Assembly: GCF_009914755.1 (NCBI RefSeq)
Contig: NC_060939.1
DNA from: the human T2T-CHM13v2.0 reference genome, Homo sapiens
Reading direction: 5' to 3' (one strand)
DNA: 64,000 nt
How positions within the stretch are numbered: the stretch's first letter is position 1; every line of letters begins with the position of its first letter. Below the pieces are notes generated by a model. That model searched no databases, had not been told where the DNA came from, and saw only the letters and a list, made by a program, of their open reading frames with translations. This document shows positions 1-4,851 of this stretch, piece by piece. The position numbers were made by a program, and so were the translations under genes.

Positions 1-397
1 CTACTGTAGAGGTATTTATGAGGCACAAATGAAATAATAGATGTAAAAGTGTTGAGTAAAGAGGTTTCATATAAATATGAGATTACAAAGACTCATATGA
101 AAGAATATGGATCATTCCTTTTCCTTTTTTCTTCTAATTTTGAAACCACAATTTAACACTTCAAAGATGATACCTTGGTAGTATTTCTTAAGTGGTGTTA
201 AGAATTCTTTTTAGAACAAAATTAACTAACTCTTCGAAGTGATTTAAATCAGACATACCTTGTTTGGACTCTTGAGCAAATAATGTCATAAGAAGGTTCT
301 GGTTTCTGGTTCTACTCAGTGAAGGGAATTGGCAATGTCAACTCATGTTCTACTCTCGATTACAAAAATAAAAAAGAGTATAGAAATTCCGGTTCAG

Positions 398-2813
<2,416 letters not shown>

Positions 2814-2929
2814 AGAAATTCTGGTTCAGCAATGAAAATTAAGCTACCCCTATATTTGTAGCATTATTGTCCTTTAATATTTGCCCCAAACTCACCAAAA
2901 ATATTCATTCCCAATTCTGGTAAGTGTGT

Positions 2930-3540
2930 GGTCGAACTAGCACATTTATTCATTGTTGATAGAAATGTAAATTGATAAAATTCTTCTAGAAAGCAATTTA
3001 GAAATATCTATAAGATGGTTTAAAGGTATTTATATCTTTTGGTACCATAACTATTTTGAGAAATTATCCTAAGGAAATAGTCCAAAATATAGAAAAAACT
3101 ATATATTAAAAATGATTATTTCAGGAATTTAAAAATTTTAACTATTATATTATTAATTCATATATTTCTAATAATATATTTTATAATATATATTTCTAAT
3201 AATATACTAAAGCTTCAGTAAATTTAAGGAGTATATTTGGTGGAATATTATGCAGCCACAAAAGTCAGGATTATGAAAGCTACACAGCCACCTGGAGAAA
3301 TGTTTATGAGATATATATACCCTATATATATATATATATATATATATCTCATTATATATTATATACCAAATAATATATAATGATATATATATCATTTGAT
3401 TTATAAATGTTTGATATGTATTTATATATCAAATGATTATATAAATATATCAAATGATATATCATTATCAAATTGTATATACACTATTATTACTGATTTT
3501 AAAATGCTTAAATTTTTAAAAAGTTTAAATAATCATGACC
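2930..3540 (+). mobile_element. Old L1M(E)-type 3' fragments interrupted by AT-rich sequence
   Basis: Degenerate L1M motifs (aaatgtaaattg...gaaagcaatt; tggaatattatgcagcca); boundaries approximate. Confidence 0.5.
3140..3482. repeat. AT-rich low complexity with (TA)n microsatellite
   Basis: Pure (TA)n at ~3323-3346 with degenerate TA-rich flanks. Confidence 0.85.
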
Positions 3541-3653
3541 AAACACATCCTGTTTAAATGGTAAAATAATGGAAAAATTACTTTTCCACAGGTGCCTGGG
3601 GATTGGCCAATTGGTTAACTGCATGCTGTGTTTAAACTTTAGGAAAAGGATAT

Positions 3654-3888
3654 AAAGAAAAACCATGAAGGGGAAGGGAAAATCACCTTCAACCAGATGT
3701 TGAGCTTCTTCAAATTGAGACATTGCTCTCACTTTTAAAATACTCCCTGCATGGGTATACATGTGCCGTGGTGGTTTGCTCGTATATCTATGCAGGGAGT
3801 ATTTTAAAAGTGAGAGCAATGTCTCAATTTAAAGAAGCTCAACATCTGGTTGAAGGTGATTTTCCCTTCCCCTTCATGGTTTATCTTT
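3654..3888. repeat. Long inverted repeat: 107-bp arms (3654-3760 / 3782-3888), 21-nt loop
   Basis: Manual pairing gives 103/107 complementary positions; it explains the near-identical ORFs 3508-3819(-) and 3723-4112(+). Confidence 0.95.
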
Positions 3889-4113
3889 CTATACATGTAT
3901 CCCAGAACTTAAAGTATAATAAAAGAAAGATATATGAAAAAAAAGAGGCTTCATGCCGTAGTGTTTGTCTCTTGCCCTTCCAGCTTCTGCCATGTCCACC
4001 ATGTGAGGACACAGCTAGAAGATCCTCACCAGACACCAAATGCCAGTGCCTTAATTTTGGACTTCCCAGACCCTCCAGAACTGTGAAAAATAAATTTCTT
4101 TTCTTTACTTAAA
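3752..4113 (+). mobile_element. Composite L1-mediated insertion (inverted L1 bit, fold-back target copy, L1PA7/8-like 3' tip, transduced MaLR fragment)
   Basis: 15-bp TSD aaaatactccctgca at 3737-3751 and 4114-4128, preceded by TTTT (L1 endonuclease TT/AAAA site); L1 3' end acatgtatcccagaacttaaagtataat at ~3893-3920. Confidence 0.85.
3945..4110 (+). mobile_element. MaLR (MST/MLT1A-type) LTR fragment ending just after its poly(A) signal
   Basis: ccatgtgaggacacag...cctcaccagacaccaaatgcc...ggacttcccag...ctccagaactgtga, AATAAA at 4089-4094; U5 part missing. Confidence 0.85.
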
Positions 4114-4325
4114 AAAATACTCCCTGCAGAGCTTAACTCGTATCTTGGCACATATTAAACAGAAGCATGATTATCAAATGCACAGACTATTGGTCTTTGG
4201 CTCTAGTTCCAGTTCTGAGGCTCTTTCTGATTCTTACTGCAAGATTGAACACTAATAAGGAAGCAGACGGGCCTCCTTTTAAGAGTATCTCATACTACAG
4301 GGGAGTTGGGCAGATATCTCTAGCT

Positions 4326-4532
4326 CAGGTGCTACCAAACTTTTCCTATAAAAGGCCAGATAGTAAATATTTTAAACTTTGCAGATCATGTGATTTCCAT
4401 TGCAGCTACTCAGTGTTGACATAGTAGAGTGAACATAGCCATAGACAATTCATAAATGAGTAAGCATGGCTGTGTTCCAATAAAATTTTATTTACCAAAA
4501 CCAAAGGATGGGCCATAGCTTGTGGATCCTTG
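4326..4532. mobile_element. MER58A (hAT-Charlie MITE)
   Basis: aaaggccagatagtaaatatttt...agccatagacaat...ggctgtgttccaataaaa matches the recalled consensus. Confidence 0.85.
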
Positions 4533-4687
4533 ATAAAGCTAATGTTTTCGTCTTCATGTGATTTTGATGCTCCCATTTGTCATAAATGCTCAGTTAGTTC
4601 CAGGATTTCCTTATCTCTTTAAACAGCTTCTATTTCCACCGGGCAGTAAACCCATTTAGTTTCATATCCTCAATATGTCCTCTGGAG

Positions 4688-4851
4688 CCTTGCTTTTGAA
4701 AGTACAGTCGACTGACTTGCAACATTGGCATCATCCAGAAGCTGGTTAGAAATAAGAATTTGGGGTCTACCCCAGATCTGCTAAATCAGAATCTGCATTT
4801 TAGCAAAGTTTGAGGTGATTCATATGCACAGCACAGTCTGAGAGGCACCAC
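4688..4851. mobile_element. MER5A1/MER5B-like hAT MITE
   Basis: ggcatca...ttagaaa...aatcagaatctgcatttt...ggtgattcatatgcaca...tgagaggcac. Confidence 0.75.

What the first reader, a model, noticed from the sequence alone, without database searches (positions are those of the whole stretch)
3654..4128. Four-part L1 insertion that copied its own target site into a ~107-bp hairpin
Seen: between two perfect 15-bp repeats (aaaatactccctgca, 3737-3751 and 4114-4128, at a TTTT/AAAA L1 endonuclease site) lie (i) ~30 bp of antisense L1 3'UTR (3750-3780), (ii) a reverse-complement copy of 3654-3760, i.e. 83 bp of upstream flank, the TSD and the first bases of the insert (3782-3888), (iii) the last ~35 bp of an L1PA7/8-like 3' end plus an A-rich tail (3889-3944), and (iv) a MaLR LTR fragment. 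Known: twin priming, templated local insertions and 3' transduction are each described for L1 target-primed reverse transcription. Inference: all three occurred in a single 362-bp event. The right arm begins cgtatatctatg, pairing with catgggtatac of the inverted L1 piece, so the fold-back was probably synthesised after the twin-primed cDNA was joined to the target 3' end. That gives a readable order of events.
Basis: partly seen in the sequence, partly recalled or inferred. Interest (0 to 1): 0.85.

Follow-up and report, generated by a model that had tools for sequence, protein, structure and literature searches.

The report
Ancient fold-back L1 insertion, donor traced
A 362-base insertion on human chromosome 15 holds a backwards copy of the DNA beside it and a piece traced to one spot on another chromosome; it likely formed in a single jump of an L1 mobile element roughly 30-40 million years ago, by a rare route already described for new insertions.

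Summary
The anatomy is real: exact 15-nt target duplications at a TTTT/AA site, a 362-nt insert and 107-111-nt inverted arms with 4-5 mismatches. The antisense and sense L1 pieces lie 15 nt apart in real L1 copies, as twin priming predicts.

New here: the LTR piece (3941-4107) matches one LTR copy, G000:C23:14360030-14360196, gap-free at 151/167. Two patterns from it each hit only this window and that copy in 3.1 Gb. No L1 abuts the donor today, so this looks like a parentless 3' transduction ending just after the LTR's AATAAA.

Best reading (0.7): one event. The twin-primed strand folded back, copied 9 nt of itself, the target duplication and about 85 nt of flank, then joined the first cDNA.

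The class is in print: twin priming plus fold-back was 1 of 1,198 somatic insertions (PMC10191854), and a self-annealing model exists (10.1101/2024.12.14.628481). The arms are somewhat more alike than the element's age predicts (P about 0.04-0.16), so a later duplication is not excluded. No primate orthologues were available. Verdict: a well-resolved old germline member of a known rare class, with no sign of function.

The parts
3650..3736 (+). 5' flank that served as template (left arm, flank part; firm from 3654)
   Evidence: only self-matches in the genome search
3737..3751 (+). left target-site duplication, at a TTTT/AA site (bottom-strand nick 3736|3737 inferred)
3752..3780 (-). inverted L1 3' UTR piece, 29 nt (twin-primed second cDNA, inferred); the last bases of the duplication give 2-4 nt of microhomology
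3761..3781 (.). 21-nt spacer (loop) of the inverted repeat; C3781 is explained by neither L1 nor the fold-back
3782..3892 (-). right arm: inverted copy of 9 nt of the L1 piece, the 15-nt duplication and 83-87 nt of flank (end ambiguous, 3888-3892)
3887..3922 (+). sense L1 3' tip; 3893-3922 occurs exactly 895 times in the genome, this copy included; 3891-3892 differ from L1 copies and agree with the flank
3919..3944 (+). decayed A-rich tail of the source element (inferred)
3941..4107 (+). LTR piece from G000:C23:14360030-14360196 (151/167, no gaps); AATAAA at 4089-4094
4108..4113 (+). short remnant of the second A tail
4114..4128 (+). right target-site duplication
4137..4143 (+). 7-mer CTCGTAT in the 3' flank, also found across the fold-back junction (3779-3785); possible short template

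Best explanation
This is a 362-nt insertion between exact 15-nt target duplications, holding an inverted L1 piece, an inverted copy of its own 5' flank, an L1 tip and an LTR piece from contig C23, and it likely arose in one L1 retrotransposition event. Steps: (1) Inferred: a source L1 sat in the A-run at C23:14360030, and its read-through RNA ended just after the LTR's AATAAA. That L1 is absent from this genome, most likely because it never fixed. (2) Established route: a bottom-strand nick at TTTT/AA primed cDNA through the tail, 167 nt of LTR, the source tail and 30-36 nt of L1. (3) Inferred from geometry: the top strand, cut 15 nt further on, primed on the same RNA 15 nt upstream of where the first cDNA stopped and copied 29 nt. 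(4) Inferred: that 3' end folded back over a 21-nt loop and copied 107-111 nt of its own strand, perhaps after picking up CGTAT from the 3' flank. (5) Inferred: the new strand was displaced and end-joined to the first cDNA, then filled in. It has since decayed with no sign of function.
For: Exact duplications at a TTTT/AA site. The L1 pieces are 15 nt apart in 15 of the 16 copies where the gap could be read; the median internal deletion in twin priming is 14.5 bp (10.1101/2024.08.27.596794). The arm sits exactly at the inversion junction. Donor: score 270 with no gaps, against at most 177 with 4 or more gap openings for the other 30 loci (two of them repeats) and the 19 other loci. The donor LTR's other listed relatives are 74-80% alike, the window piece 90%. 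Two patterns of 41 and 36 nt each give 2 matches in 3.1 Gb, here and at the donor. The match starts at a CTTTT/AT site; L1s lie inserted at this A-run in three paralogous LTRs, two with clear duplications starting there. Parentless transductions are common: only 3 of 27 in one dog comparison had an adjacent L1 (PMC13141329). Donor divergence of 9.6% matches the 9.6-10.7% median between L1 copies with the same 3' end. Known somatic cases add 52-220 bp.
Against: The arms differ at only 4.5% (5/111) against 9.6% expected: binomial P 0.04, Fisher P 0.16, and P 0.009 for the flank-plus-duplication part alone. This is softened by the split of the 16 donor differences: 4 on the chr15 side, 8 on the donor side, 4 unclear. 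The final A tail is very short. No sibling transduction from the source was found. The three paralogous L1-in-LTR cases were found because the query held that junction, so they show the site is usable, not how often. No orthologue was examined.
Confidence: 0.7

Rival explanations
1. One event, but no source L1 ever sat at the C23 LTR: reverse transcription began on an unrelated RNA ending at the LTR's poly(A) signal and jumped, through the A-run, onto the tail of an L1 RNA.
For: The C23 site is empty, with no L1 match in the 10 kb upstream. The junction is an A-run, one of only 4 runs of 4 or more A in the LTR, which a jump also needs. ORF2p jumps templates in vitro (PMC10830420), and nine two-RNA insertions are reported (PMC11702581).
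Against: Partnered transductions are far commoner (466 of 5,311 L1 insertions, PMC12350158) and are often parentless. L1s do insert at this very site in paralogous LTRs.
Confidence: 0.12
2. The L1 with its transduction inserted first as an ordinary twin-primed element; the inverted duplication came later from a replication or repair template switch.
For: The arms are more alike than the age predicts (P 0.04). After integration a continuous template covering flank, duplication and L1 piece exists. Inverted duplications of median 284 bp are common without L1 (PMC12350158).
Against: The extra DNA lies exactly at the inversion junction and removes no more L1 than the usual 15 nt. The same structure is seen in new insertions. 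The chr15 side appears to change slowly, and Fisher's test is not significant.
Confidence: 0.09
3. One event, but by a closed hairpin: the fold-back filled only 24 nt and was ligated to the nicked bottom strand; a second endonuclease nick at 3653|3654 then gave a 3' end onto which the first cDNA jumped, copying round the loop.
For: Position 3654 is TCTTT/AT, the only site passing my strict endonuclease rule among 195 positions upstream (rule set after seeing the site). The preprint 10.1101/2022.05.18.492429 proposes first-strand extension on the upstream bottom strand.
Against: It needs the arm to end at 3888 and two later changes at 3891-3892; ending at 3892 needs only one. With a looser rule (2 or fewer mismatches), 14 of 195 positions qualify.
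Confidence: 0.09

Closest known systems
Somatic L1 insertions with both a 5' inversion and a short fold-back inversion (PMC10191854, class 3: n=1 of 1,198; fold-back alone n=3)
   Same: Target duplication, twin-primed piece and inverted duplication of the 5' flank; 107-111 nt lies within their 52-220 bp.
   Different: This one is germline and old, and adds a partnered transduction. Their preprint's mechanism (first cDNA copying the upstream bottom strand) does not by itself give an arm that holds the duplication and the L1 piece. I read the text, not the figure.
L1 insertions with inversion or inverted duplication at the reciprocal end (10.1101/2024.12.14.628481 Fig. 4; PMC11702581 Fig. S9)
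   Same: Self-annealing over a small hairpin, synthesis, displacement and joining to the first cDNA, with the duplication kept. S9B combines twin priming with a flank inversion.
   Different: In the passages read, their inverted duplications fold from the genomic end; here the fold starts from the twin-primed cDNA. Theirs are cell-line and cancer cases.
Templated L1 insertions (10.1101/2024.08.27.596794; 22 cases)
   Same: Template under 250 bp, within 15 bp of the site.
   Different: Ascribed there to cDNA strand invasion; orientation and overlap with twin priming were not stated in the passages read.
Parentless partnered 3' transduction (PMC13141329; PMC12350158)
   Same: L1 tip, A tail, unique downstream piece, poly(A) signal, second tail; no L1 at the donor.
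   Different: The donor pair is about 10% diverged, so the missing source is an old one rather than a segregating one (inferred).

Membership tests
L1 target-primed insertion | Target-site duplication of about 12-18 nt | tested here: met
   15 of 15 identical
L1 target-primed insertion | Endonuclease motif TTTT/AA at the first nick | tested here: met
   bottom-strand ATTTT/AA
L1 target-primed insertion | 3' poly(A) tail next to the right duplication | tested here: inconclusive
   only 3 A plus the 4 A of the duplication
L1 target-primed insertion | Empty site with one copy of the target in an outgroup | not testable with these tools
   no other primate genome is held (no relatives)
Twin-primed (5'-inverted) L1 | Inverted piece lies just upstream of the sense piece in L1, with a short gap or overlap | tested here: met
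   15-nt gap in 15 of 16 readable copies
Twin-primed (5'-inverted) L1 | Microhomology of 2-5 nt at the 5' junction | tested here: met
   CA exact, TGCA against TACA with one wobble; range from PMC2912911
Fold-back inverted duplication class | Inverted copy of the 5' flank, 52-220 bp, inside the insertion | tested here: met
Fold-back inverted duplication class | Microhomology that primes the fold | tested here: inconclusive
   at most 1 nt from L1 alone; 4 nt if CGTAT came from the 3' flank
Fold-back inverted duplication class | Formed in the same event as the insertion | tested here: inconclusive
   position supports it; arm divergence is low but compatible
Partnered 3' transduction | Piece behind the L1 tail maps to one other locus | tested here: met
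Partnered 3' transduction | Ends shortly after a poly(A) signal | tested here: met
   AATAAA at 4089-4094; the match ends at 4107
Partnered 3' transduction | Source L1 directly upstream of the donor | tested here: not met
   site empty in this genome; fits the parentless sub-type, but the source itself is not shown
L1PA7/8 subfamily | Diagnostic 3' UTR bases against reference consensus sequences | not testable with these tools
   label recalled; copies sharing the 30-nt end differ by a median 10.7%; ages of about 30 and 40 My from 10.1101/2021.04.06.438727
MaLR (MST-type) LTR | Match to a named repeat model | not testable with these tools
   label recalled; the donor is an interspersed repeat of about 345 nt with TG...CA ends and many 74-80% relatives

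The most novel reading that the evidence does not exclude
The L1 machinery alone made the whole structure by serial template hops (RNA, 3' flank, own strand, first cDNA), and such fold-back insertions are an uncatalogued germline source of long, near-perfect inverted repeats. At the somatic rate of 4 in 1,198 and over 500,000 L1 copies, the human genome could hold on the order of a thousand such fossils, each recording the order of repair steps, and old transductions like this one would map extinct source elements.
Probability: 0.2. Interest if true: 0.6.

Novelty: new member of a known kind. Interest (0 to 1): 0.33.

Why it matters
How the second end of an L1 insertion is finished is still open (PMC11702581). 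This junction gives a base-level order: twin priming, then fold-back, then joining. It suggests that a route known from a handful of somatic and cell-line cases also ran in the primate germline tens of millions of years ago and that its hairpin product can persist. It also points to one exact site on C23 where an extinct source L1 is predicted, which a primate alignment can test at once. It is a single intergenic fossil, so its weight is modest unless a genome-wide class is shown.

Tried and rejected
1. The neighbouring L1 (406-2819) as a local template: rejected. The pieces match it at only 86-90%, its 3' end is of another type, and it cannot supply the LTR piece.
2. A surviving source L1 near the donor: none abuts it. 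The nearest matches to the L1 probe are an antisense L1 10-13 kb upstream and an L1 part 5 kb downstream (the probe covers only the 3' 2.4 kb of L1).
3. A better donor: none among the loci. The DNA searches scored only 40 of 1,685-4,784 candidates, but the pattern scans report whole counts.
4. Sibling transductions: the donor's downstream 776 nt matches only itself.
5. A known RNA family: 0 Rfam matches in 3500-4300.
6. Generality: 1 of 26 distinct L1 3' ends in hand had an inverted repeat of 30 nt or more upstream, and it was this locus. Most of those stretches were short and lay inside L1, so this test has almost no power.
7. One search had an off-by-one probe; its divergence figures are replaced (18 of 20 copies, 153 of 190 pairs; one stretch lacked the probe, one gave no long alignment).
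8. The P values near 0.001 for the best 93-nt stretch of the arms were dropped as chosen after the fact.
9. Literature searches listed no paper on this locus or on a germline catalogue of the class; the library lacks most subscription papers, and bioRxiv supplements could not be read.

Full report
OBSERVATION. The window holds two identical 15-mers at 3737-3751 and 4114-4128 around 362 nt. The left one follows CTTTT, so the bottom strand reads ATTTT/AA, the L1 endonuclease motif. Inverted arms 3654-3760 and 3782-3888 differ at 4 of 107 positions; extended to 3650 and 3892 they differ at 5 of 111, with a 21-nt spacer. As single-stranded DNA this folds at -119 kcal/mol, z -26.5, reached by 0 of 200 shuffles. 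A self-comparison of the 64 kb shows no other short-spacer inverted repeat except an AT-rich run at 3306-3468. Rfam gives nothing, and the hub's annotation lists no gene or element here.

THE L1 PIECES. Bases 3893-3922 occur exactly 895 times in the genome. In 20 stretches fetched around such matches, the reverse complement of 3750-3780 matches the L1 3' UTR just upstream, mostly with 2-6 mismatches of 31. The gap between the two pieces is 15 nt in 15 of the 16 copies where it could be read. This is twin-priming geometry; the reported median internal deletion is 14.5 bp (10.1101/2024.08.27.596794, passages). The target end TGCA faces TACA on the L1 copy, 2 exact bases or 4 with a wobble; about 70% of inverted L1s show 2-5 nt (PMC2912911, passages). 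Copies sharing this 3' end differ by a median 10.7%, or 9.6% outside CpG (153 pairs, 18 copies). The name L1PA7/8 is recalled, not tested. Those subfamilies are dated to about 30 and 40 million years (10.1101/2021.04.06.438727, passages), so the age here is inferred.

THE DONOR. Bases 3941-4107 align without a gap, 151 of 167, to G000:C23:14360030-14360196; I take C23 to be the X chromosome from its number and recalled length. The other 30 loci (two of them repeats) and the 19 other loci score at most 177 against 270 and need 4 or more gap openings. Searching back with the C23 LTR gives relatives at 74-80% and the window piece at 90%. A 41-nt pattern (2 mismatches allowed) and a 36-nt pattern (3 allowed) each hit only the window and the donor in 3.1 Gb. 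A third, 26-nt pattern gave 22 hits; the 14 other hits that were fetched do not align over the piece. The match starts at the LTR's A-run, a CTTTT/AT site, and ends 13 nt after AATAAA. No L1 abuts the donor, and none matches in the 10 kb upstream. Three paralogous LTRs (L059, L060, L061) each carry an L1 inserted at this A-run, two with clear duplications starting there; they were found because the query held such a junction. The simplest reading is a partnered 3' transduction whose source never fixed. Parentless cases are common: 3 of 27 in a dog comparison had an adjacent L1 (PMC13141329, passages), and 466 of 5,311 polymorphic human L1s carry transductions (PMC12350158, passages). A jump between two RNAs would give the same junction and is not excluded. 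No sibling was found.

THE FOLD-BACK. The right arm holds 9 nt of the inverted L1 piece, the 15-nt duplication and 83-87 nt of flank. Before an insertion is sealed, only the top strand carries these three in a row (inference from the standard model). So the copy was made by that strand folding on itself after twin priming, or after integration. The L1-templated end offers at most 1 nt of pairing to the fold start, and C3781 fits neither template. The 7-mer across this junction, CTCGTAT, recurs 9 nt right of the right duplication. It occurs 3 times in the window, with 0.82 expected, which gives roughly 0.001 for a hit within 50 nt of the target; this was noticed after the fact and explains only one new base. 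If real, a 5-nt hop to the 3' flank supplied the GTAT that primes the fold. I give that about 0.4. At the other junction, 3887-3894 is a mosaic of flank and L1. If the arm ends at 3888 it stops at TCTTT/AT, the only strict endonuclease-like site in 195 positions upstream, but that reading needs two later changes where the alternative needs one.

ONE EVENT OR TWO. The donor pair differs by 9.6%, in line with the L1 copies, but the arms differ by 4.5%: P 0.04 against 9.6%, 0.11 against 8%, Fisher 0.16; for flank plus duplication alone (3 of 102) P is 0.009. Of the 16 donor differences, 4 fall on the chr15 side, 8 on the donor side and 4 are unclear, judged against 32 other loci. That puts the chr15 copy at 2.4-4.8% change and the arms at an expected 5-10%, which includes the observed value at its low end. 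Conversion between arms could also lower it (recalled, not tested). The arm's place exactly at the inversion junction argues for one event. Orthologues would decide; none is held.

WHAT IS KNOWN. PMC10191854 (section 11 read whole; passages) reports 354 inversions, 3 short fold-back inversions of the 5' flank and 1 with both among 1,198 somatic insertions, with 52-220 bp of added synthesis. Its preprint (one passage) ascribes this to the cDNA end copying the upstream bottom strand. 10.1101/2024.12.14.628481 (passages) and PMC11702581 (passages; supplement captions S9-S10) describe inverted duplications by self-annealing, synthesis and displacement, and one flank inversion combined with twin priming. 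ORF2p copies DNA templates, extends short primers and RNA hairpins, and jumps templates in vitro (PMC10830420, passages), so ORF2p or a host polymerase could have done step 4; the sequence cannot tell which. PMC5753468 (passages) gave only repeat names. Five searches listed no paper on this locus or on a germline catalogue. Figures and bioRxiv supplements were not seen and may hold closer cases.

VERDICT. Real, well resolved, and a new member of a known rare class. Its added value is the traced donor with a predicted lost source, the apparent age and the readable order of steps. Interest 0.33.

Noticed in passing
window 382-2829: A second, larger 5'-inverted L1 ends about 900 nt upstream: inverted part about 406-617, sense part to about 2819, between 16-nt repeats at 382-397 and 2814-2829 with one mismatch. 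An ordinary twin-primed copy.
   Followed up: partly
window 3306-3468: AT-rich run forming several imperfect palindromes, about 190 nt upstream of the left arm.
   Followed up: no
L059:221-2084, L060:8682-9892, L061:59-694: Three independent L1 insertions split LTRs of this family at the same A-run. The site may be a recurrent L1 target that places the LTR's poly(A) signal about 150 nt downstream, which would favour short transductions. The rate was not measured.
   Followed up: partly
L026 and L028, just upstream of the LTR match: Other LTR copies are interrupted near the same position by what looks like an Alu tail (L026) and a GGAA repeat (L028) (the Alu label is recalled).
   Followed up: no
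L052 and L053 (G000:C15:30133286 and 27993041): Two LTR copies with identical scores on opposite strands 2.1 Mb apart, probably a segmental duplication.
   Followed up: no
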